Shown: piece after piece, positions 121-42,511 of the stretch
How the letters are laid out: each line of letters begins with the position of its first letter
Position numbering within the stretch: position 1 is the stretch's first letter
From: Escherichia phage vB_EcoS_HdH2
Sequence record: NC_048748.1
Direction: 5' to 3' (one strand)
DNA length: 64,000 nt
Notes under the pieces: model-generated
The model's input: the letters and a program-made list of their open reading frames with translations, nothing else
What the model was told of the DNA's origin: nothing
Database searches by the model: none
Position numbers and translations under genes: made by a program

Positions 121-257
121 ATAAATTTACTTATTGTGTAGGCCACCTGGAGGCTACCAACCCCACGGCTGACAAAGAAGTTTGCGAGACTTCTCTTAAA
201 AGCCAGAATAGACCCGCCGATCTATCGGAACCTACATAATAAGTAAACTTTATAGTG

Positions 258-1146: not shown

Positions 1147-1248
1147 GCTTGTTTCCTCAGTTATTAATGAAAATGGTATCTGTGGCTGAATTCGATGTCA
1201 GCAATGATAGCTGGTTGGCTACCGGTTTACTTAACTCTACACAGAATT

Positions 1249-5846: not shown

Positions 5847-6041
5847 ATGTGTTGCAGAAAATCTGTTTCGTGCTGCCCAATGCCTGTAGCACGTTGTTGC
5901 TCTCCAGCAATGTTTACGCAAATACCGGCGTTCAATCCGTTTGCCTTTAAGCCTACTCTTATCCTGCCCCCTAGAGTAGATTTTCAGTCAAGATTGGCCT
6001 CCCGTATGGGTGGTTGCTGTAACAAGAGTATATGGTTCTAA
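5847..6041 (+). CDS. hypothetical Cys-rich small protein (64 aa) with four CC doublets
   Basis: ORF with AGGAGG RBS directly after the previous gene; CC at residues 2-3, 9-10, 17-18 and 57-58; followed by terminators. Confidence 0.4.
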   Translation: MCCRKSVSCCPMPVARCCSPAMFTQIPAFNPFAFKPTLILPPRVDFQSRLASRMGGCCNKSIWF

Positions 6042-6056
6042 AGAACCAAACAATAA

Positions 6057-6090
6057 AGCCCCTAGTCGAAAGACTTAGGGGCTTTTTCTT
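6057..6090 (+). terminator. rho-independent terminator ending the plus-strand cassette
   Basis: Hairpin AGCCCCTAGTC-GAAA-GACTTAGGGGCT followed by TTTTT. Confidence 0.65.
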
Positions 6091-6107
6091 TTGCCTTAAA
6101 ATACAGA

Positions 6108-6140
6108 AAAGCCCGCGCTCTCGGAGAAAACGCGGGCTTA
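6108..6140 (-). terminator. rho-independent terminator after the SPFH gene (hairpin shared with the plus-strand cassette end)
   Basis: Inverted repeat AAGCCCGCG...CGCGGGCTT; on the minus strand it is followed by TTTTCTGTATTTT. Confidence 0.55.
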
Positions 6141-6162
6141 GTTCGAAGATTACGTGTAACTA

Positions 6163-7110
6163 TTACTTGTTACGCATATCCATGATCATTTGACCATCAT
6201 AGCCAGTGCCAACTACAGTCTGAGGTACACCACCTTGATATTTCTGAGCACGAATCATCTCAACTTCCAGTTGTTTCCAACGAATCATCTCAGGAGTAAT
6301 GGTACGTTGTAGTGCGGCGTTAGCTTCAGCTTCTTTCTTAGCTGCGTACAGTTTAGCATCTGCGTCACGTTCATTAGCAATAGCTTGGTTATTGCGAGCT
6401 TCACGATCTGCTTCTGCTTGTTTAACTTTTTGCTGTGCTTCCTGTTCAACGCGGGCAAGTTCAGCTTTCGCAGCGTTAACTTGCTCTTCACGAACTTTGG
6501 TATTCTGTACCTGTTCCATGATTACCGGTGGCAAAGTAATATCCTGAAGAAACACCTGCTTAACTGTGTAACCATATGGGCGTGCATACTCTTCAACTTC
6601 CTGTTGAATTGCAGTTTGCAATTGAGCCTGAATTTTAGCATCAAACAAATCTTGTGCTTTAGGTACAGACTTACCAAACTCACGAATAGTAGACAGTAAT
6701 TTTTCAGTTACATATTTGTCTAACGCTTGATCCTGAGTACCTGCATTAATACGGTTAATCGGTGCCTTAGAACCATCAAACTGCAACATAACAGTCAGGT
6801 CAACAGTGGATTTAAACTTATCCTGACTAGGGACCTGAAGTTTATCTAATTTTAGAGCAATATCTTTAGTACTAAAAGTATCGAAAGAAGCAAAAGGATT
6901 TACAATATGAAAGCCGGGTAATACTGGGCTAGGGTCAACCTTACCCAGGAAGGTCTGGGTTTTAACAGTACCGTCTTGAACAACAGTGTAAGAGTTAAGA
7001 GCCAGAACTAAACCTACCAAACCAACTGCAGCCCCAATACCCCAACGTTTGATATTACGCATTAATTTTTGCTCATAAGTCAGTTCTTTAGTGTTTTTAG
7101 TAGCAAACAT
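6163..7110 (-). CDS. SPFH/band-7 family membrane protein (HflC/stomatin-like)
   Basis: N-terminal TM helix (IGAAVGLVGLVLAL), SPFH-like core (YTVVQDGTVKTQTFLGKV), charged Ala/Glu/Gln-rich coiled-coil tail; RBS AAAGGAAAT; directly downstream of tRNA-Arg. Confidence 0.6.
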   Translation of the reverse strand: MFATKNTKELTYEQKLMRNIKRWGIGAAVGLVGLVLALNSYTVVQDGTVKTQTFLGKVDPSPVLPGFHIVNPFASFDTFSTKDIALKLDKLQVPSQDKFKSTVDLTVMLQFDGSKAPINRINAGTQDQALDKYVTEKLLSTIREFGKSVPKAQDLFDAKIQAQLQTAIQQEVEEYARPYGYTVKQVFLQDITLPPVIMEQVQNTKVREEQVNAAKAELARVEQEAQQKVKQAEADREARNNQAIANERDADAKLYAAKKEAEANAALQRTITPEMIRWKQLEVEMIRAQKYQGGVPQTVVGTGYDGQMIMDMRNK

Positions 7111-7144
7111 ATATTTCCTTTATTTTAGTTACAGTTAATAAAAT

Positions 7145-7219
7145 TGGCCGAGGTGACAGGATTCGAACCTGCATAAAGGAATTTAGAAGACTCCTGCCTC
7201 TCCCTTAGACTACACCCCG
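7145..7219 (-). tRNA. tRNA-Arg (anticodon UCU)
   Basis: Acceptor CGGGGTG/CACCTCG, anticodon stem-loop GGAGT-CTTCTAA-ATTCC, T-arm GCAGG-TTCGAAT-CCTGT, G-CCA end. Confidence 0.7.
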
Positions 7220-7229
7220 TTTAAGTATT

Positions 7230-8010
7230 TTTAAGAACTCTCGTAAAAACTCTTAAAAATACAGACGATACCGGGAGAGTCATAAGTCTCACTCATTAAG
7301 TATTTCAAGACAAAATACGGTAACGTCTATTATTTTCCAGTTTAAGTCAGGGTGACTTAGTGGTTATGTCCTGCGGTATATTGAGGACTCGGTTAGGCTT
7401 GGGGTCATGACTTCCCACCTTTTGCTGCTACTCAACAGGAGTTATCGCGAATTACCTGTGCTATTGTGCACCATTAGTGACATCTCTCATGTCAGCATTT
7501 CCCACTTTGTGGATAGCTTGAAAAACTACTCCGATATGGAGAAAGAACTTCACTACCCTAGAATACCTTCTAAAGTTCTTCTTTAGCCTGGACATAGTTA
7601 AATCGTAATAAAACTATTCAGCAGACTGGTTGGTTAGTCTGGAACCAACTACCGCGTGGTTTAGGCAGTGCGCAACTAACCTCGGAAGCTTTTACGTTAA
7701 AAGCATCAGTTATCCAGTTCTTACCGACCGTAGGATTCGAACCTACATCTTCCACCAGTTACGGCTTGATAATACCAATTATACTAGGACGGCAGTGTTA
7801 CTACATAAGTGATTTCCACACCCCACTATTTATAAATTAGAGAAGAGTTTAGGGGAGAGGTTTCAGACGCCTCATTTTACACGTTCTAGCCACTAACCGG
7901 GATTGCCGCCCCCTGTGTACTAGTTTTACAACTAACCCACCGACTCTATTCAACGAATCTTAGTGCTCGACGCATCTTACATTAAGACAAGTTCAGCGTA
8001 ATCGGCTCGC
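7230..8010 (-). ncRNA. promoter-driven non-coding transcript region; candidate stable RNA(s), includes a tRNA-like 3' domain at about 7720-7795
   Basis: About 780 nt without a credible ORF, lying between the early promoter at 8020-8070 and tRNA-Arg; contains canonical T-arm GTAGG-TTCGAAT-CCTAC with acceptor-like GCCGTCC/GGTCGGT but no anticodon stem, plus several local hairpins. Confidence 0.3.
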
Positions 8011-8019
8011 TGTTCCCTA

Positions 8020-8070
8020 ATTTATGAATATATTATACAGAATTTAAAGGCATTTAGCAAATAAATTTTT
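8020..8070 (-). promoter_or_regulatory. T5-type early promoter firing into the 7230-8010 non-coding region
   Basis: Reverse complement has TTTGCTA -35, TGTATAATATAT extended -10 and CATAAATT box. Confidence 0.55.
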
Positions 8071-8512
8071 AATTAAATTCGCCAGCAATCTGAGCAGCAG
8101 TACCACCATCATAACGCCCAGAAAATTCTTCCTTAATCGCTTTCATCAGCATACCTTTTGTAATTCCAGGGTTTAGCTTAACTAATTCTGCAAAGTATTT
8201 ACGAATCTCAGTATCAGATAACTGAGGAGGCAGATACTCCTGCAACCACTTAGTTAGAATGTATTCATACTGAGCAGACTGCAAGCTATAACTATCAAGA
8301 TCTTGACCATGAAGTTTAGCTTTCATCTGGTTAATGCTTTTTAGTTGAGCTTTGAGATAAGACACAAATTGTTCAGAAGTGATGAAATCTTTATCAATAC
8401 GCTGAAGATCCCCGATTATGGTCTGATAGCTTTTAGCGACTTCTTTATCAGAACCATTAAACTTAGAATCCTGCAAAGCTCTACGCAAAACATCTAAAAT
8501 ATTCTCTTCCAT
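8069..8512 (-). CDS. GatB/YqeY-domain protein
   Basis: YqeY-like signature (YLPPQLSD, GRYDGGTAAQI); start overlaps the stop of the upstream small ORF (TAATG). Confidence 0.55.
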   Translation of the reverse strand: MEENILDVLRRALQDSKFNGSDKEVAKSYQTIIGDLQRIDKDFITSEQFVSYLKAQLKSINQMKAKLHGQDLDSYSLQSAQYEYILTKWLQEYLPPQLSDTEIRKYFAELVKLNPGITKGMLMKAIKEEFSGRYDGGTAAQIAGEFN

Positions 8513-8680
8513 TATTTCATTCCTAACGCTTGGTTAAAAGATTGTTCTGTCATAACTGCTGAGACTTTGGCGAAATCAAACTTTTTAGGGTTCGTAGTGA
8601 TCTCAGCAACGTTAGAAGTTTTAACAGTTTTCGTAGTACGAATACCGCGAGTGTTAACGCCAATAATTACAACTGATTTC
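8510..8680 (-). CDS. small hypothetical protein (about 54 aa, MKSVVIIGVNTRGIR...), not in the ORF track
   Basis: ATG behind RBS GAGAGGAAG and the promoter at 8703-8755; stop overlaps the next start. Confidence 0.4.
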
Positions 8681-8750
8681 ATATTTCGCTTCCTCTCATT
8701 AATTTATGAAAGTATTATACAGAAATTTAAGTACTTAAGCAAGTAAATTT

Positions 8751-9200
8751 TTAAGTTTTAGTGACAACAGGTTTATAGAATGTATGTCCCTTAATCTTAG
8801 TTGTTTTCTTAAATTTCTTTGTCCAGTAAGGTTTATCTTTACCACTATGGAAGTATAGTGCTCCATGTGTAGGATCTTGTGGTAAATCAACGTAGTATAT
8901 CACTCTAGCTAAATTCTTAGCAGTTTGCCAAGCCTCATCAGTTTTATCAACTTTTGGTCTCTTAGATACCCAAGAGAACTGGTTAGACTGATATACTACT
9001 TTACAGTAGGAATCTGGGAATTTACCGGAGTTTACACGGTTTTTAGTAACATGTGCAATCGCTGTCATTCCCTTTATGCCCTCACCACGACTTTCGAAAT
9101 AGATATTTTTAGCAATGCAATCTATTTCTTTTGCATCGTGCGATGCCTGACTACTAAAGCTGAAGGTAAGGGCAGCTACTAAAAGCAAAGCTGCCTTCAT
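8751..9200 (-). CDS. secreted cell-wall hydrolase, SleB/CwlJ-like (Hydrolase_2 family); candidate lysis or entry enzyme
   Basis: Signal-peptide-like N-terminus (MKAALLLVAALTFSFSSQA) and family motif FESRGE...AIAHVTKNR; start set at second ATG behind GGCAGGAG RBS. Confidence 0.5.
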   Translation of the reverse strand: MKAALLLVAALTFSFSSQASHDAKEIDCIAKNIYFESRGEGIKGMTAIAHVTKNRVNSGKFPDSYCKVVYQSNQFSWVSKRPKVDKTDEAWQTAKNLARVIYYVDLPQDPTHGALYFHSGKDKPYWTKKFKKTTKIKGHTFYKPVVTKT

Positions 9201-9205
9201 TCTTT

Positions 9206-9523
9206 TTACTCCTGCCAATCATATTCAACACGATTGGGATTTTCTTTATACCCTAAGTCAAGCAAATCATTACGCATACTTTGCTTAGCTACTGGGTTCG
9301 AGGTTACTAGTACCACTTTCTTTGGTCTCTGCCCAAATTCTAAGAGTAAACGAAGAATTTGATAACCTTCCATACCATCTACAGCCAAGTCATTATCCAT
9401 ATAAACGAAATGGCCTGTGGTATCAGTTTTATTCAGAAACTCTACAGCGGCTTCTGGGGTTCGAATGATAATGTCCATTCCGTGAAGATTACGCACATCA
9501 TCAATCAAAATATGAAAAGTCAT
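9206..9523 (-). CDS. hypothetical protein (105 aa), possibly a CheY-like receiver fold
   Basis: ORF behind the promoter at 9541-9595; acidic pocket-like motif DNDLAVDGMEGY; assignment weak. Confidence 0.4.
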   Translation of the reverse strand: MTFHILIDDVRNLHGMDIIIRTPEAAVEFLNKTDTTGHFVYMDNDLAVDGMEGYQILRLLLEFGQRPKKVVLVTSNPVAKQSMRNDLLDLGYKENPNRVEYDWQE

Positions 9524-13592: not shown

Positions 13593-14069
13593 TCACATCT
13601 CGGCCATTTCAGCTTCAGTAATAACTGTGTTACACAATGCATCTACAGCTTCATTACCACTAATACCAGAATGTCCTTTAACCTTAATAAAGGTAGGATT
13701 AGTATTATGAAAGTTGATATACTGCTGTGTTAATTTAAATGCTTCCTGCCAAAGTTCTAGATTAAGAGGAACTTCACCATCTGCTTTCTTCCAGCCTTTC
13801 CTTTGCCAAGAAAACATCCAACTTTCCATACCATTTTTGCAATAAGCAGAATCAGTATAGATAACAATTGGTCTATTATCTTTTTTAACTGACCAACGTA
13901 GAGCCTCTACAATAGCCGTGAGTTCCATCTCATTATTTGTAGTTTTAGGACTATATCCAGATTTAGAACCTAAACGATCGTCGTTATCATCATAGACAAT
14001 AAAGCCCCAAGCACCTGGACCTGGGTTAGACTTACAAGCACCATCTGTGTAAATGTGGAAAACCGACAT
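13593..14069 (-). CDS. rnhA: ribonuclease H (RNase HI-like)
   Basis: RNase H motifs: YTDGAC, ELTAIVEAL, IYTDSAYC, KGHSGISGNE. Confidence 0.7.
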   Translation of the reverse strand: MSVFHIYTDGACKSNPGPGAWGFIVYDDNDDRLGSKSGYSPKTTNNEMELTAIVEALRWSVKKDNRPIVIYTDSAYCKNGMESWMFSWQRKGWKKADGEVPLNLELWQEAFKLTQQYINFHNTNPTFIKVKGHSGISGNEAVDALCNTVITEAEMAEM

Positions 14070-14338
14070 TATTTGCTCCAGTCAATTTCAAGCCAAAAAC
14101 CTTCACGCTGCTCATACTTAGCTTCTACGACATAGCCTAGTTTAGTGAGTCGTTGCATAACGCTGTTTCTGGCGTTTTCTGAATATTCAGTTAACCCCTG
14201 AATATGGCAGTTAAATTCTTTTTCTTTGATTGCTTTATCAATCTCTACGGCAATAAGTGACTCTAGATTAAGTACTTCCTGTTTAATAACAGCAATAGTA
14301 TTTTGTTTTGCTTCTAAAGCAGATAAAAGAATAGACAT
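14069..14338 (-). CDS. hypothetical protein (89 aa)
   Basis: ORF with start/stop overlap to neighbours in the same operon. Confidence 0.45.
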   Translation of the reverse strand: MSILLSALEAKQNTIAVIKQEVLNLESLIAVEIDKAIKEKEFNCHIQGLTEYSENARNSVMQRLTKLGYVVEAKYEQREGFWLEIDWSK

Positions 14339-14592
14339 TAGTTTTCGCCTTCTATAATTACCCTAGTCGCTGGAGGAATTGGCGGCATAGGAGGAATACA
14401 TGGATGACCTCTTTGTGCATCATTTGGTACTCTTGGCGGTTCAGGTCTAATTGCCTTTAATTCCTTTTCTAGGAATTGTTCTAACGCCCGTTCTACAAAA
14501 TGATCGAAAGGTAAGTGATAATACTGAGACAGAGCTAAGAACCTACGTTCTTGACTTTGTGTTAAATAAACTTTCTTTTTAAAGAGTCCCAT
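14338..14592 (-). CDS. hypothetical protein (about 84 aa)
   Basis: Start moved to the internal ATG (MGLFKKK) behind GGAGACAACT RBS because the upstream codons overlap the promoter at about 14598-14650. Confidence 0.45.
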   Translation of the reverse strand: MGLFKKKVYLTQSQERRFLALSQYYHLPFDHFVERALEQFLEKELKAIRPEPPRVPNDAQRGHPCIPPMPPIPPATRVIIEGEN

Positions 14593-36625: not shown

Positions 36626-37155
36626 TAACACAGGAACGACTAAAAGAACTGTTTGACTACTCCCCAGAGACTGGGGAGTTTATTAGAAAAGTATCTAGAG
36701 GCAGCCAGAAAGCCGGGAGTATAGTAACTAGAAAGGATTCAAACGGTTATATAATTATCGGTATAGATGGTAGGGATTATAAAGCCCATCGTATGGCCTT
36801 CCTATTTATGGAAAACACGTTACCTGAAAAAGTAGACCATGTAAATAGAATACCCTTTGATAACCGATGGTGTAATCTAAGAGACGCCACAGCCCAGGAA
36901 AATAGTAGAAATAAAACCGCATGTAGTAAGTCTGGATATTTGGGAGTTGCTTGGGATATAGAAAAACAAAGATGGAGAGTTCAAGTAAGAGACTCTAATA
37001 GCACTCTTAAAAATGGTGGCAGATTTAAGTATGAAGAGCTAGAGCTAGCTGTAAATTCAGCAAATATATTAAGGGCTAAGTTACATGGAGAACGTGCTGT
37101 TATAGAAATTTTTGATACATCTAATTATCCTTCGCTGGAGGAGTTAAATTCATGA
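36622..37155 (+). mobile_element. HNH homing endonuclease with AP2-like DNA-binding domain
   Basis: HNH motif (AHRMAFL...VDHVNRIPFDNRWCNLR) and AP2-like segment YLGVAWDIEKQRWRVQV; AT-rich codon usage; inserted between helicase and primase. Confidence 0.65.
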
Positions 37156-40672: not shown

Positions 40673-41162
40673 TTTCAAATTGCCCGTCTATGCGTTACGG
40701 GCGTTTGTATCAATTGAGCAAGAAGGTGATTATTCCGTAATTACAACAAGATATAATAAATATGTGCTAGATAACAGGAAGTTGCCTGGCACGTTTTCTC
40801 AACGTAGGCTTATTCTATTTGAGAAACGGAAAGAATTACCATACAAGCTCTATCCTATTAGGGGTAGAATATCAATGTTGTCTCAATTAGTTGGGTCAAA
40901 GCGTAACCAATTTATAGATTCTGATGGAAATCTTATTAATTGGAAGAAAACTACGTTCTATGATGTTGTCACCTCTAAAGTTTTGCATTCAGCTAGAATT
41001 TATAATGGAAAATACCAATGCTATGTGGCTAAAGTCCCTTATCCGTTTGTATTATCCTATGTTCCAGCTTATATAAGCTATATTCTGGTAAATAATAGCC
41101 CTGTTATTTATCAAGTCCATCAAGAGGAGCCTGAAATTCCTAGACTTAGAATAAAATTATGA
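40665..41162 (+). CDS. hypothetical protein (165 aa), AT-rich codon usage
   Basis: ORF between polymerase and helicase with composition unlike its neighbours; possible inserted gene. Confidence 0.4.
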   Translation: MLNFKLPVYALRAFVSIEQEGDYSVITTRYNKYVLDNRKLPGTFSQRRLILFEKRKELPYKLYPIRGRISMLSQLVGSKRNQFIDSDGNLINWKKTTFYDVVTSKVLHSARIYNGKYQCYVAKVPYPFVLSYVPAYISYILVNNSPVIYQVHQEEPEIPRLRIKL

Positions 41163-42511
41163 AGGTTGTTATATCTAATAAAGCCTATTTCAAGCCCGAT
41201 GATGAACTTTGGGATTATTGTAGTAAGCAAACCACTTATCACATAGAGACAATGACTAGTAAATACCCTATTATGTATAAGAATAGTGGTGTTGTTGCCA
41301 AAGAGATTAAGTGGATTCCTATTACGCGTCTGGACTTACTAGATGCTAAAGGAGTAAAATACGAATTAGTCGATAAACGCACATTAGCTCCGGTAGATAT
41401 ACCAAAACCTAAGTTCAAACTGCGTGAAGAAGATCAGCTTCCAATATACGAAGAATGCGATGATACTTGTATTATTAATGGTAAGCCTGGATTTGGTAAA
41501 ACTATCCTAGCCCTTGCACTTGCGTATAAATTTGGCCAGAAAACTCTGGTAATTTGTACGAATACATCCATTCGTGAAATGTGGGCGGCAGAAGTTCGTA
41601 AATGGTTTGGGTTTGAACCAGGCATCATAGGTTCTGGGAAATACAATATCGATCCACCAATTGTAGTCAGTAATATTCAAACAGTGAATAAACATGCGAA
41701 TAATCTTTCTAAAGTATTCGGTACTGTTATAGTTGATGAAGTTCACCATTGTGTGGCTACAACTTTCACTAACTTCCTAGAAATATCATGTGCTCGCTAT
41801 AAAATTGGACTATCCGGTACACTAAAACGAAAAGATGGTTTGCAAGTTATGTTCAAAGATTTCTTTGGGTATAAAATCTTTAGTCCTCCAGTTAATAATA
41901 CTGTTGCTCCTACAATCCACAGGTACTCAGTACCAGTTGAATTGTCTGGAAACCAAAACGTACCGTGGGCATTACGTGCTAACGATGTGTATAATCATCC
42001 TGAATATCGAGAGACTATTATAAACCTAGCACATTTATATGTGAATATGGGACATAAAGTACTCATTGTAAGTGATAGAACAGAGTTAATCCAAACAGTA
42101 CTAGAAGCACTATCTCAGAGAGGAATCACAACCTATGAAATTATAGGAGCAACCCACTTAGATGACCGATTAAAAATTCAGGAAGATATAGCAAAAGGTG
42201 GGCCTTGTGTACTTGCAGCAGCTCAAAGTATCTTCTCTGAAGGTATTTCCCTTAATGAGCTGTCTTGTTTAATAATGGGAAGCCTCATTAATAATGAATC
42301 TCTCATTGAACAGCTTGCAGGCCGTGTTCAACGTATTGTCGAGGGCAAACTCGACCCTATTGTTGTAGATCTAATTATGAAAGGTGGTACTGGTCTAAGA
42401 CAGGCTTCTGGACGTATGGCAGTATATCGTAACAACGGGTGGAAAACTATTACCATGACTCCTGAGAAAGCAGTTCAATTAGCTAAAATTGCATTTGGCA
42501 ACAGCTCATAA
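41159..42511 (+). CDS. SF2 DExH-box helicase (T5 D10-like)
   Basis: Walker A GKPGFGKT, DExH VDEVHH, helicase C-terminal motifs (QLAGRVQR). Confidence 0.65.
   Translation: MKVVISNKAYFKPDDELWDYCSKQTTYHIETMTSKYPIMYKNSGVVAKEIKWIPITRLDLLDAKGVKYELVDKRTLAPVDIPKPKFKLREEDQLPIYEECDDTCIINGKPGFGKTILALALAYKFGQKTLVICTNTSIREMWAAEVRKWFGFEPGIIGSGKYNIDPPIVVSNIQTVNKHANNLSKVFGTVIVDEVHHCVATTFTNFLEISCARYKIGLSGTLKRKDGLQVMFKDFFGYKIFSPPVNNTVAPTIHRYSVPVELSGNQNVPWALRANDVYNHPEYRETIINLAHLYVNMGHKVLIVSDRTELIQTVLEALSQRGITTYEIIGATHLDDRLKIQEDIAKGGPCVLAAAQSIFSEGISLNELSCLIMGSLINNESLIEQLAGRVQRIVEGKLDPIVVDLIMKGGTGLRQASGRMAVYRNNGWKTITMTPEKAVQLAKIAFGNSS

What the first reader, a model, noticed from the sequence alone, without database searches (positions are those of the whole stretch)
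7230..8010. Promoter-driven 780-nt region without ORFs: candidate stable non-coding RNAs with a tRNA-like 3' domain
An early promoter at 8020-8070 fires into about 780 nt that contain no credible ORF and end at tRNA-Arg. Inside is a canonical T-arm (GTAGG-TTCGAAT-CCTAC) with an acceptor-like pairing but no anticodon stem (about 7720-7795), plus local hairpins (for example around 7621-7650) and an internal TAGTATAAT -10-like box. Older T5 literature, as I recall it, describes small stable RNAs of unknown function in the tRNA region; this may be their locus or a new one.
Basis: partly seen in the sequence, partly recalled or inferred. Interest (0 to 1): 0.55.

Follow-up and report, generated by a model that had tools for sequence, protein, structure and literature searches.

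The report
T5 "RNAX" non-coding RNA locus
This gene-free stretch is the already-annotated "RNAX" stable-RNA locus of T5-like phages, a promoter-driven, modular structured RNA containing a tRNA look-alike that cannot decode, and its function is still unknown.

Summary
A strong sigma-70 promoter (8060-8032, minus strand) reads into about 800 nt with no conserved ORF, ending at tRNA-Arg (7219-7145). The locus is not new. The T5 reference genome and the BF23 tRNA-region record annotate the same interval as misc_RNA "rnaX / RNAX, stable RNA with unknown functions", downstream of "promoter P16-17". The BF23 copy is about 95-98% identical to the window.

Comparison across Demerecviridae adds detail:
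- **Modular and mosaic.** RNAX has a 5' leader domain closed by a 13-bp helix, a stem-enclosed tRNA-like module, a multi-hairpin domain and an AU-rich hairpin just before tRNA-Arg.
- **tRNA mimic.** The tRNA-like element (7793-7722) keeps every universal tRNA core/elbow nucleotide and covarying D, T and acceptor stems. Its anticodon arm is only 3 bp with a 6-nt loop.
- **Enclosing helix.** Its flanks form a 12-bp helix that pairs in all 33 variants, with 6 compensatory pairs. Eps7-like phages swap out the tRNA-like core but keep this helix.

Viable T5st0 and a BF23 lab stock lack the locus, so it is accessory. No Rfam family except tRNA matches. My best reading is a processed multi-domain ncRNA carrying a non-decoding tRNA mimic. 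Its function is not shown.

The parts
8032..8060 (-). Sigma-70-type early promoter (TTGCTA-17-TATAAT), the equivalent of T5/BF23 'promoter P16-17'. The inferred transcription start is about 8025-8018.
   Evidence: 10 of 12 consensus positions; annotated promoter; conserved in 18 of 18 relatives.
7831..8025 (-). Leader domain. The 5' end AUAAAUUAGGGAA (8025-8013) pairs with UUCUCUAAUUUAU (7844-7832). It contains the conserved hairpin CAGCG..CGCUG (8012-7994) and a variable interior.
   Evidence: RNAfold. RNAalifold on 9 diverse leaders, shows the helices conserved but no compensatory changes. T5 retains only the closing hairpin, and some Epseptimaviruses carry an HNH ORF here instead. The first 95 nt are 89% identical in a Klebsiella phage.
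7684..7825 (-). Stem-enclosed tRNA-mimic module (C-module). It comprises an invariant GGGGUG motif, tentative P1 (7817-7814 with 7687-7684), P2 (7813-7805 with 7713-7705), P3 (7803-7800 with 7718-7715), the tRNA-like core and the 3' hairpin H.
   Evidence: P2+P3 are paired in 100% of 33 distinct sequences, with 6 of 12 pairs compensatory. RNAalifold and single-sequence RNAfold predict the same helices. P1 is paired in only 68% of cells. Model R1 finds one copy per phage at 135-181 bits, or 90 bits where the core is swapped.
7722..7793 (-). tRNA-like core. It has an acceptor stem (U.U at 5-68), a D arm, a degenerate 'anticodon' arm of 3 bp with the 6-nt loop GUAACU, a T arm and A73. No CCA is encoded.
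   Evidence: Rfam tRNA 35.5 bits. Not called by ARAGORN. U8, A14, G18, G19, A21, G53, U54, U55, C56, A58 and C61 are invariant or nearly so among 31 variants, and A15:U48 holds in 29 of 31. The D, T and acceptor stems covary. Annotated 'tRNA-OTHER' in several records.
7688..7704 (-). Hairpin H (GCUUUUA-ACG-UAAAAGC), placed directly between the 3' strands of P2 and P1.
   Evidence: 90% of cells paired, 2 compensatory pairs..
7516..7683 (-). Variable linker holding local hairpins, for example GUUGGUU/AACCAAC at 7649-7629. It is present in only part of the family.
   Evidence: 'mid' segment absent or diverged in several relatives.
7344..7505 (-). M-domain. Five helices are closed by GUGG (7505-7502) pairing with CCAC (7363-7360), followed by hairpin GUCACCCUGAC (7358-7344).
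   Evidence: RNAalifold on 12 sequences: 40 pairs, 8 with compensatory changes. RNAfold z-score is -2.4 for 7515-7220.
7225..7262 (-). AU-rich 17-bp hairpin F, 5 nt upstream of tRNA-Arg. It is 90-92% identical in Klebsiella phages, where it precedes ORFs rather than the tRNA.
7145..7219 (-). tRNA-Arg(UCU), the 3' end of the RNAX interval, co-transcribed with it.
   Evidence: 49.3 bits.
6109..7110 (-). Rest of the inferred transcription unit: the SPFH/Band-7 protein gene (7110-6163) and the first terminator-like hairpin on this strand (6139-6109).
   Evidence: An annotated bidirectional terminator sits at the equivalent place in T5 and BF23.

Best explanation
The region is the ortholog of T5/BF23 'RNAX'. 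It is an early, host-RNA-polymerase-transcribed, non-coding RNA of about 800 nt. It is made together with tRNA-Arg, and probably with the downstream SPFH gene, from promoter P16-17.

It is a string of separately folded modules rather than one fold: a leader domain whose 5' end is buried in a 13-bp helix, a tRNA mimic enclosed by a helix formed from its own flanks, a multi-hairpin domain, and an AU-rich hairpin just before tRNA-Arg.

The tRNA mimic is kept for its L-shaped core and elbow, not for decoding. My inference is as follows:
- Host tRNA-maturation enzymes (RNase P at 7794/7793, and perhaps RNase III or RNase E at the helices) recognise the mimic and cut the precursor into stable structured pieces.
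- The released, stem-anchored mimic acts by binding a protein that recognises the tRNA elbow or acceptor, as a decoy or tether.
- It gives an accessory benefit that is host- or condition-specific.

Shown here: identity with RNAX, the promoter, absence of coding, the covarying structures, family-wide conservation, and dispensability in the laboratory. Inferred: processing, stability and the binding role.
For: - **Same locus as annotated RNAX.**
- **Promoter, and no terminator until 6139-6109.**
- **No conserved ORF or Shine-Dalgarno sequence.**. The annotated 'CDS' in homologous Klebsiella regions look spurious, and one record has 1.3 kb free of gene calls.
- **C-module structure.** 89.4% of cells pair against 81.8% in shuffles (0 of 500 shuffles reach it). 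18 pairs change on both sides. Slid controls pair in 33-41% of cells. P2+P3 pair in 100% of cells, with 6 compensatory pairs that include G.U wobbles, which assigns the structure to the minus-strand RNA. RNAalifold and RNAfold find the same helices independently.
- **tRNA core.** All universal tRNA tertiary nucleotides are invariant in 31 variants. The anticodon arm varies freely: 6-nt loops GUAACU or UUCACC, an 8-nt loop, a 20-nt loop carrying a covarying hairpin, and a canonical tRNA-Pro(UGG) arm only in Erwinia phage KEY.
- **Core swap.** Eps7-like phages replace the tRNA core with an unrelated element of about 45 nt but keep the enclosing helix.
- **M-domain.** 8 compensatory pairs.
- **Cross-genus conservation above the neighbouring gene.** The C-module is 87%, hairpin F 92% and the leader 89% identical, against 68% for the endolysin gene.
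- **Accessory.** The locus is deleted in viable T5st0 and in a sequenced BF23 stock.
Against: - No transcript data were available. 'Stable RNA' rests on the depositors' annotation, whose boundaries simply fill the gap from promoter to tRNA.
- The leader shows no compensatory changes, and P1 is weak at 68% paired.
- The C-module and the leader fold no better than their shuffles (z = -0.05 and -1.3).
- Modules are lost, swapped or interrupted in viable relatives: T5 lacks most of the leader, HNH ORFs replace it elsewhere, and Eps7 lacks the tRNA core. No single module is therefore indispensable.
- High cross-genus identity could partly reflect recent horizontal exchange in a region rich in homing endonucleases.
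- No binding partner is identified. Pairing of the leader with the trailer next to the acceptor stem could hinder RNase P.
Confidence: 0.6

Rival explanations
1. Decaying spacer. The interval is a non-functional 5' leader of tRNA-Arg, littered with a tRNA pseudogene and remnants of insertions and deletions left by homing endonucleases. The apparent conservation reflects recent recombination among T5-like phages.
For: - The region is a mosaic with large indels, from 768 to 1958 nt between the promoter and tRNA-Arg.
- HNH ORFs are inserted in some relatives.
- T5 carries an 87-nt duplication-flanked insertion.
- Recombinant flank and core combinations occur (L074, L079).
- Some isolates carry pair-breaking point mutations or a D-arm deletion (L046, L078, L080).
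- The locus is dispensable.
Against: - Compensatory changes appear in many helices of two modules.
- The tRNA tertiary nucleotides are invariant in 31 variants.
- The enclosing helix is kept even when the core is swapped.
- RNA modules are 19-24 percentage points more conserved than the adjacent endolysin gene across genera.
Confidence: 0.15
2. Y-RNA-like tether. The stem-enclosed tRNA mimic works like bacterial Y RNAs (YrlA, Yrn1). The helix formed by the flanks binds a Ro60/Rsr-type or other protein, and the tRNA-like head recruits a second factor.
For: - The architecture is parallel: a stem made from the 5' and 3' flanks plus a tRNA-like domain.
- D. radiodurans Yrn1 has the same D-'anticodon'-T order with a 6-nt loop, and YrlA RNAs also occur in phages (PMC4201824).
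- The 5' flank reads GUCGAA or GCCGAA in Epseptimavirus, Klebsiella and Erwinia phage versions, resembling the GNCGAA part of the proposed Rsr motif.
- An invariant non-Watson-Crick core in P2 (C.C and G.G flanked by ACUUAUG/GAUAACU) looks like a protein-binding site.
Against: - No Rfam family other than tRNA matches.
- In the window and in T5 the motif is GUGGAA, and the trailing N0-1G is not met. That C/G position also covaries as a base pair.
- YrlA is circularly permuted (T, acceptor-like stem, D), and this element is not.
- Y RNAs are encoded within 4 kb of a Ro60 gene, but the neighbours here are YqeY-like, DUF7616, endolysin and SPFH proteins.
- From my own knowledge, E. coli K-12, a host of T5, lacks rsr.
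Confidence: 0.1
3. GOLLD/ROOL-type large phage RNA. RNAX is a further class of large ornate phage RNA tied to tRNA islands, and may self-assemble or encapsulate tRNAs.
For: Size is about 800 nt. It is encoded in a phage tRNA island and carries a tRNA(-like) element internally. [quoted passage not shown] Several domains covary.
Against: - There is no match to the Rfam GOLLD or ROOL models at E<=10.
- Modules are independently lost or swapped, which argues against a single integrated fold.
- No inter-domain pairings were detected.
- Thermodynamic z-scores are modest.
Confidence: 0.07
4. A working, unusual tRNA. The tRNA-like element decodes, for example as a suppressor or frameshift tRNA, and the rest is its precursor.
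For: It scores above the Rfam tRNA gathering threshold. ARAGORN calls the homologs tRNA-Ser(ACU) in T5, tRNA-SeC(UCA) in 26175II and tRNA-Pro(UGG) in Erwinia phage KEY. The KEY version has a canonical 5-bp stem and 7-nt loop.
Against: - In the window the arm is 3 bp with a 6-nt loop.
- Loop sequence and length differ among close relatives, and the whole core is replaced in Eps7-like phages.
- The 1-72 and 5-68 acceptor pairs are mostly mismatched.
- No CCA is encoded.
- The annotated 'anticodons' disagree among relatives.
Confidence: 0.05
5. Small-protein genes. One or more short ORFs annotated in some records (for example 7953-7849, or 7755-7618) are real.
For: Some automated annotations-60 aa 'hypothetical proteins' here.
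Against: - There is no Shine-Dalgarno sequence.
- ORFs are interrupted by stops, truncated or absent in relatives.
- One ORF overlaps the tRNA-like core.
- Indels are not multiples of three.
- Curated T5 and BF23 records and several other annotations call no CDS here.
Confidence: 0.03

Closest known systems
RNAX (rnaX) of bacteriophages T5 (NC_005859, 40848-41566) and BF23 (NC_042564, 13651-14434)
   Same: Same position, from promoter P16-17 to tRNA-Arg, and same strand. It is 92-98% identical over the shared parts and is annotated 'stable RNA with unknown functions'.
   Different: T5 lacks about 165 nt of the leader and has an extra 87-nt repeat-flanked insertion. The window's leader has a different variable hairpin from BF23's. 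The records give no structure or function.
Bacterial and phage Y RNAs (YrlA; D. radiodurans Yrn1)
   Same: A non-decoding tRNA mimic with conserved D and T arms and tertiary nucleotides, attached to a helix formed by the flanking 5' and 3' sequences. Yrn1 also has a 6-nt 'anticodon' loop (PMC4201824).
   Different: It is not permuted like YrlA. It is not next to a Ro60 gene. The proposed Rsr motif is only partly present, and absent in the window. There is no covariance-model match. It is embedded in an 800-nt transcript rather than being an 80-130-nt RNA.
GOLLD and ROOL large phage/prophage RNAs
   Same: Large (about 600-800 nt) structured non-coding RNAs of unknown function, encoded by phages next to tRNA islands. 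GOLLD sometimes carries tRNAs in a linker and has a variable 5' half (PMC12286853).
   Different: There is no sequence or structure homology in the Rfam scan. RNAX modules are separable and individually dispensable. No evidence of multimerisation.
Other T5/BF23 'tRNA-like' and stable RNAs (RNA1, RNA2, RNA3, RNAI, RNAIII, RNAIV, RNA2H), and, from memory, T4 species 1 and 2 RNAs
   Same: Small RNAs of unknown function interspersed among phage tRNA genes. Orthologs of RNA2, RNA3 and RNAIV are also in this window.
   Different: They are 74-172 nt. The RNAX model R1 does not match them beyond ordinary tRNA-core similarity.
Processing stalks of rRNA/tRNA precursors and RNase III sites of T7 early RNA (from established knowledge)
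   Same: Flanking sequences pair to enclose a structured RNA. Helices carry internal mismatches and sit between functional units of a polycistronic transcript.
   Different: Cleavage was not tested here. The P2 core is invariant in sequence, which is more than a generic double-stranded RNA site needs.

Membership tests
T5/BF23 RNAX locus | Lies between early promoter P16-17 (downstream of the YqeY-like gene) and tRNA-Arg, on the same strand | tested here: met
T5/BF23 RNAX locus | Nucleotide homology along its length to the annotated rnaX | tested here: met
   BF23 is 94.8% identical over 851 nt (H46), and 98-100% over RNAX positions 1-26 and 52-784. T5 is 92-98% identical over the shared parts.
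T5/BF23 RNAX locus | Accumulates as a stable RNA in infected cells | not testable with these tools
   Only the depositors' note says so. No paper on RNAX was found in the searchable library.
tRNA (Rfam RF00005) | Cloverleaf with acceptor, D and T arms and the universal tertiary nucleotides | tested here: met
   35.5 bits against a gathering score of 29. U8, A14, G18, G19, A21, G53, U54, U55, C56, A58 and C61 are conserved.
tRNA (Rfam RF00005) | A 5-bp anticodon stem with a 7-nt loop presenting a conserved anticodon | tested here: not met
   The window has 3 bp plus the 6-nt loop GUAACU. The arm is unaligned by the model and not called by ARAGORN. The loop varies or is replaced among relatives.
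tRNA (Rfam RF00005) | Fully paired 7-bp acceptor stem with a mature 3' CCA, and aminoacylation | tested here: inconclusive
   Pair 5-68 is U.U in 23 of 31 variants, and 1-72 is G.U or G.A. No CCA is encoded. Charging cannot be tested here.
Bacterial Y RNA (YrlA type) | tRNA-like domain in permuted order (T arm, acceptor-like stem-loop, D arm) | tested here: not met
   The order here is acceptor-D-'anticodon'-T-acceptor, as in a normal tRNA. YrlA features are taken from PMC4201824.
Bacterial Y RNA (YrlA type) | GNCGAAN0-1G motif near the 5' end (the proposed Rsr/Ro60 site) | tested here: not met
   The window has GUGGAA. Relatives have GUCGAA or GCCGAA, but the following G lies 2-3 nt away.
Bacterial Y RNA (YrlA type) | Encoded within about 4 kb of, and on the same strand as, a Ro60/TROVE gene | tested here: not met
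   The neighbours are YqeY-like, DUF7616, endolysin and SPFH/Band-7 genes. The whole phage genome was not scanned for TROVE domains.
Bacterial Y RNA (YrlA type) | Long helix formed by the sequences flanking the tRNA-like domain | tested here: met
   P2+P3 form 12 bp, paired in 100% of cells, with 6 compensatory pairs.
GOLLD / ROOL RNAs | Match to the family covariance model | tested here: not met
   No hit at E<=10 in 6000-9500. The models are in Rfam according to PMC12286853.
GOLLD / ROOL RNAs | Large phage-encoded non-coding RNA adjacent to a tRNA island | tested here: met
   About 800 nt, inside the T5-type tRNA region.
GOLLD / ROOL RNAs | Homo-oligomeric nanocage assembly | not testable with these tools
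   Needs biophysics or cryo-EM.
tmRNA | tRNA-like domain formed by the 5' and 3' ends, plus a tag reading frame | tested here: not met
   ARAGORN finds no tmRNA. There is no tmRNA-clan hit apart from tRNA.

The most novel reading that the evidence does not exclude
RNAX is a previously uncharacterised class of large, modular phage non-coding RNA specific to Demerecviridae tRNA islands. Its conserved core is a 'platform' helix (P2/P3 with an invariant C.C/G.G-containing motif) that displays an exchangeable head, usually a non-decoding tRNA mimic. The platform-plus-mimic would work in trans like a Y RNA or decoy, capturing a host or phage protein that recognises the tRNA elbow. Candidates are a tRNA-targeting defence nuclease, RNase P, or the adjacent YqeY-like protein. 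This would give a host-range or anti-defence benefit that is invisible in laboratory K-12 strains.
Probability: 0.2. Interest if true: 0.7.

Novelty: already known. Interest (0 to 1): 0.4.

Why it matters
T5 is a classic model phage, yet its tRNA region still holds eight annotated 'stable RNAs with unknown functions'. RNAX is by far the largest.

This work shows that RNAX is conserved across genera of Demerecviridae, more strongly than a neighbouring protein gene. It also shows covarying domains, including a tRNA mimic selected for shape rather than decoding. That turns a blank annotation into specific, testable objects: defined helices to mutate, a predicted RNase P site, and natural deletion and swap variants to compare.

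This matters now because phage tRNAs have recently been tied to evasion of tRNA-targeting defences, and because other large phage RNAs near tRNA islands (GOLLD, ROOL) remain unexplained. If the module proves to be only a processing scaffold or a relic, the locus is ordinary.

Tried and rejected
- **Rfam.** Scans at E<=10 of 6000-9500 and of 7660-7860 gave only tRNA. There was no Y RNA, tmRNA, GOLLD, ROOL, 6S, RNase P or intron hit.
- **Host similarity.** Search of 5,426 E. coli genomes found none, so no host-derived decoy is evident at the sequence level.
- **Bacterial genomes.** A pattern scan of 185,579 species genomes gave 0 hits, so the module appears phage-only.
- **More relatives.** Pattern scans of viral and metagenome contigs returned only T5-like phages. 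A protein-anchored locus search with the YqeY-like protein returned only close relatives.
- **Coding.** Seven small ORFs were tested and rejected. tblastn with 'CDS' annotated in homologous regions gave only hits explained by nucleotide similarity.
- **Extra copies.** No second copy of the module or paralogy with RNA1, RNA2 or RNA3 was found.
- **P1 helix** (GGAA/UUCC) is paired in only 68% of cells with no compensatory change, so I keep it as tentative.
- **Leader domain.** Helices are conserved but show no compensatory change, so the structure is unproven.
- **Internal '-10' box** TAGTATAAT is rejected. It is the D arm, and the scan lists no promoter there.
- **Kink-turn or sarcin-ricin reading** of the junction loop was considered by eye and rejected, because the candidate bases covary as Watson-Crick pairs.
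- **Literature.** Searches for RNAX and T5 stable RNAs found nothing usable in the searchable library.
Full report
**What the window is.** The window is a T5-like phage (Tequintavirus). Positions 7100-8200 are 99.5% identical to Salmonella phage oldekolle and Escherichia phage VEc33, and 444 phage records match. All features below lie on the minus strand.

**Checking the observation.**
- A TTGCTA-17-TATAAT promoter lies at 8060-8032, matching 10 of 12 consensus positions. As a bare consensus match it is not above chance: 4 sites were found and 5.1 expected.
- The site is conserved in all 18 relatives compared. It corresponds to 'promoter P16-17' in the curated T5 and BF23 records.
- No terminator-like site follows on this strand until 6139-6109.
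- Between the promoter and tRNA-Arg(UCU) at 7219-7145, the longest ORFs are 45 aa on the minus strand and 60 aa on the plus strand.
It scores 35.5 bits against a gathering score of 29, and its anticodon arm does not align. ARAGORN does not call it a tRNA. Several GenBank records label it 'tRNA-OTHER'.
- The 'TAGTATAAT' box is positions 8-16 of this tRNA-like element, that is U8, A9, the D stem and the D loop. It is not a promoter.

**It is an annotated locus.**
- The BF23 tRNA-region record NC_042564 carries misc_RNA 'rnaX, RNAX, stable RNA with unknown functions' at 13651-14434, directly between promoter P16-17 and tRNA-Arg.
- The T5 reference genome NC_005859 carries the same feature at 40848-41566.
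- BF23 RNAX aligns to window 8018-7993 (100%) and 7952-7220 (98%).
The classic RNAs I and III, however, lie next to tRNA-His, outside this interval.
- I found no paper on RNAX in the searchable library. 'Stable' therefore rests on the depositors' note, and the annotated ends simply fill the gap from promoter to tRNA.

**Not coding.** Seven small ORFs on both strands were compared with 15 diverged relatives. Each is interrupted by stop codons, truncated or absent in some of them, and none has a Shine-Dalgarno sequence. Alignments contain indels that are not multiples of three. One Klebsiella phage record combining four gene callers leaves 1.3 kb of the homologous region empty.

**A mosaic of conserved blocks.**
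- The distance from promoter to tRNA-Arg ranges from 768 to 1958 nt among relatives.
- Conserved blocks lie in the same order in Tequintavirus, Epseptimavirus, Klebsiella Sugarlandvirus and Erwinia phage KEY.
- T5 lacks window 8013-7850.
- Some Epseptimaviruses have a 483-nt HNH endonuclease ORF in place of 8020-7831.
- Others have a 510-nt ORF inserted before tRNA-Arg.

**The tRNA-mimic module (7825-7684).**
- *The enclosing helix.* Aligning 33 distinct versions shows that the flanks of the tRNA-like element pair with each other. P2 is AUCAcUUAU pairing with AUAAcUGAU, with a conserved C.C mismatch. P3 is UAGU pairing with ACUG. Hairpin H follows directly.
- *Counts for the structure I specified.* 89.4% of cells pair, against 81.8% in shuffles (0 of 500 reach it). 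18 pairs change on both sides. Sliding the partners drops pairing to 33-41%. The 12 pairs of P2+P3 are formed in every sequence, and 6 of them are compensatory.
- *Independent predictions.* RNAalifold finds the same helices, and so does single-sequence folding. The energy is no better than shuffles (z = -0.05).
- *Strand.* The G.U wobbles place the structure in the minus-strand RNA, not the DNA or the opposite strand.
- *P1.* The outer helix P1 (GGAA/UUCC) pairs in only 68% of cells and stays tentative.
- *The tRNA core.* The D, T and acceptor stems covary. U8, A14, G18, G19, A21, G53, U54, U55, C56, A58 and C61 are invariant or nearly so in 31 versions, and the A15:U48 pair holds in 29 of 31.
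- *The anticodon arm is not conserved.* It is 3-4 bp with a 6-nt loop (GUAACU or UUCACC), or an 8-nt loop, or a 5-bp stem with a 20-nt loop carrying its own covarying hairpin in Klebsiella phages. A canonical tRNA-Pro(UGG) arm occurs only in Erwinia phage KEY.
- *Core swap.* In Eps7-like phages the whole tRNA core is replaced by an unrelated element of about 45 nt, while P2, P3 and H stay.
- *Copy number and distribution.* A covariance model built from the alignment finds exactly one copy per phage, at 135-181 bits, or 90 bits for the swapped form. Ordinary tRNAs match only the core at under 32 bits. The motif is absent from 185,579 bacterial and archaeal species genomes, and the interval has no similarity to E. 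coli genomes.

**Other modules.**
- *Leader (8025-7831).* It folds so that the transcript's first 13 nt pair with 7844-7832. That helix and a CAGCG/CGCUG hairpin are conserved in nine diverse leaders, including Klebsiella and Erwinia phages, but without compensatory changes. T5 keeps only the closing hairpin.
- *M-domain (7505-7344).* RNAalifold predicts 40 pairs on 12 sequences, 8 of them compensatory. The domain is closed by GUGG pairing with CCAC. The 3' part (7515-7220) folds better than shuffles (z = -2.4).
- *Hairpin F (7262-7225).* This 17-bp AU-rich hairpin lies 5 nt before tRNA-Arg. It is 90-92% identical in Klebsiella phages, where it precedes ORFs instead of the tRNA.

**Strength of constraint.** Between the window and Klebsiella phage K30lambda2.2, the endolysin gene is 68% identical at the nucleotide level. 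The leader start is 89%, the tRNA-mimic module 87% and hairpin F 92%. This indicates purifying selection. Recent exchange in this region rich in homing endonucleases could contribute.

**Dispensability.** The heat-stable deletion mutant T5st0 lacks everything from just after tRNA-Asp to within the YqeY-like gene, including RNAX. A recently sequenced BF23 stock jumps from the start of the tRNA-mimic module to hegA, losing the rest of RNAX and tRNA-Arg. That stock's paper also reports no tRNA-Arg (PMC10644984). RNAX is therefore accessory in laboratory hosts.

**How it most likely works.**
- *Shown:* an early promoter; a non-coding transcript continuous with tRNA-Arg; independently folded, covarying modules; and a tRNA mimic selected for its elbow and core but not for decoding.
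- *Inferred:* host RNase P should recognise the mimic and tRNA-Arg and cut the precursor. The terminal helices of each module, and the buried 5' end, should stabilise the pieces. The platform helix, with its invariant non-Watson-Crick core, plus the tRNA-shaped head would then bind some protein that recognises tRNA.
- I put about 0.6 on this general picture and much less on any particular partner.
- The adjacent upstream protein is only a borderline YqeY/GatB-tail match (26.3 bits against a cutoff of 27). It is missing at that position in Klebsiella phages, so it is a lead and no more.

**Comparison with known families.**
- *tRNA.* The element fails the test on the anticodon arm.
- *Bacterial Y RNAs.* The resemblance is architectural: a helix from the flanks plus a tRNA mimic, and a 6-nt 'anticodon' loop as in Yrn1 (PMC4201824). 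It fails on permutation, on the Rsr motif in this window, on linkage to a Ro60 gene, and on any model match.
- *GOLLD and ROOL.* It shares their ecology, as a large phage RNA beside tRNA islands that sometimes carries tRNAs (PMC12286853). It does not match their models, and its modules are separable.

**Verdict.** The locus is already known as RNAX. What is new here is its anatomy and its family-wide conservation. Its function remains open.

Noticed in passing
window 135-237, 257-380, 1174-1246 (minus strand): Orthologs of three other BF23/T5 annotated RNAs of unknown function lie at the start of the window: RNAIV (98% identical), the tRNA-like RNA2 (95%) and the tRNA-like RNA3 (99%). ARAGORN's tRNA-Asn call (1249-1331) abuts RNA3.
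   Followed up: partly
L007 (T5, NC_005859), RNAX positions 495-604: T5 carries an insertion in the 3' part of RNAX bounded by two copies, 87 nt apart, of AGTCACCTTGAC(N)TAAACTGGAA. The window has this sequence once. It looks like a duplication or recombination scar.
   Followed up: partly
L035, L036 (1246-1728) and L038 (1846-2328); window equivalent 8020-7831: In Salmonella phages 2-3, falkor and vaffelhjerte, a 160-aa HNH endonuclease ORF starts 6 nt after the -10 box and replaces the RNAX leader. A related HNH protein is encoded elsewhere in the window (about 36628-37092, 33% amino-acid identity by tblastn).
   Followed up: partly
L024, L025, L030 (Eps7-like phages); window equivalent 7793-7722: The tRNA-like core is swapped for an unrelated element of about 45 nt, closed by CCAGA/UCUGG, while the enclosing helix and hairpin H are kept.
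   Followed up: partly
L031, L040, L060, L062, L074, L076 (Klebsiella-type variants): The 'anticodon loop' holds a 14-15-nt hairpin that itself covaries (GGGGAGCCAUCCCC against GGAGAUUAUAUCUCC), rather like a small intron or extra arm. L074 combines this head with Tequintavirus-type flanks, so heads and platforms recombine.
   Followed up: no
L032 1555-1629 (Erwinia phage KEY): Here the homologous element is a canonical-looking tRNA-Pro(UGG) scoring 50 bits, yet it sits inside the same enclosing helix. This may be the ancestral state, or a functional tRNA with a processing stalk.
   Followed up: no
L081 (BF23 complete genome OR083247) 2300-2657: This BF23 stock has a deletion from inside the tRNA-mimic module to the hegA (F-TflIV) gene. 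It removes tRNA-Arg, the SPFH gene and several others that are present in the older BF23 tRNA-region record.
   Followed up: partly
L039 2279-2450 (Klebsiella phage K30lambda2.2): About 170 extra non-coding nt lie between the leader and the tRNA-mimic module. They begin with AUGGUGGAAUCUCACUUUAAC, which resembles a degenerate second copy of the module's 5' flank.
   Followed up: no
window 6050-6139: Two back-to-back GC-rich hairpins, with weak Rfam matches to terminator-containing families, correspond to the 'efficient bidirectional rho-independent terminator' annotated in T5. T5 and BF23 also annotate a major single-strand DNA nick nearby.
   Followed up: no
window 8515-8682 (minus strand): A 56-aa protein just upstream of the YqeY-like gene is a full-length, strong match to Pfam DUF7616 (113 bits).
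   Followed up: no
L039 3815-3970 and L031 3303-3458: In Klebsiella phages, tRNA-Arg with its flanks matches the whole 152-position RNAX-module model weakly (about 30 bits). This hints that this tRNA may also have paired flanks.
   Followed up: no
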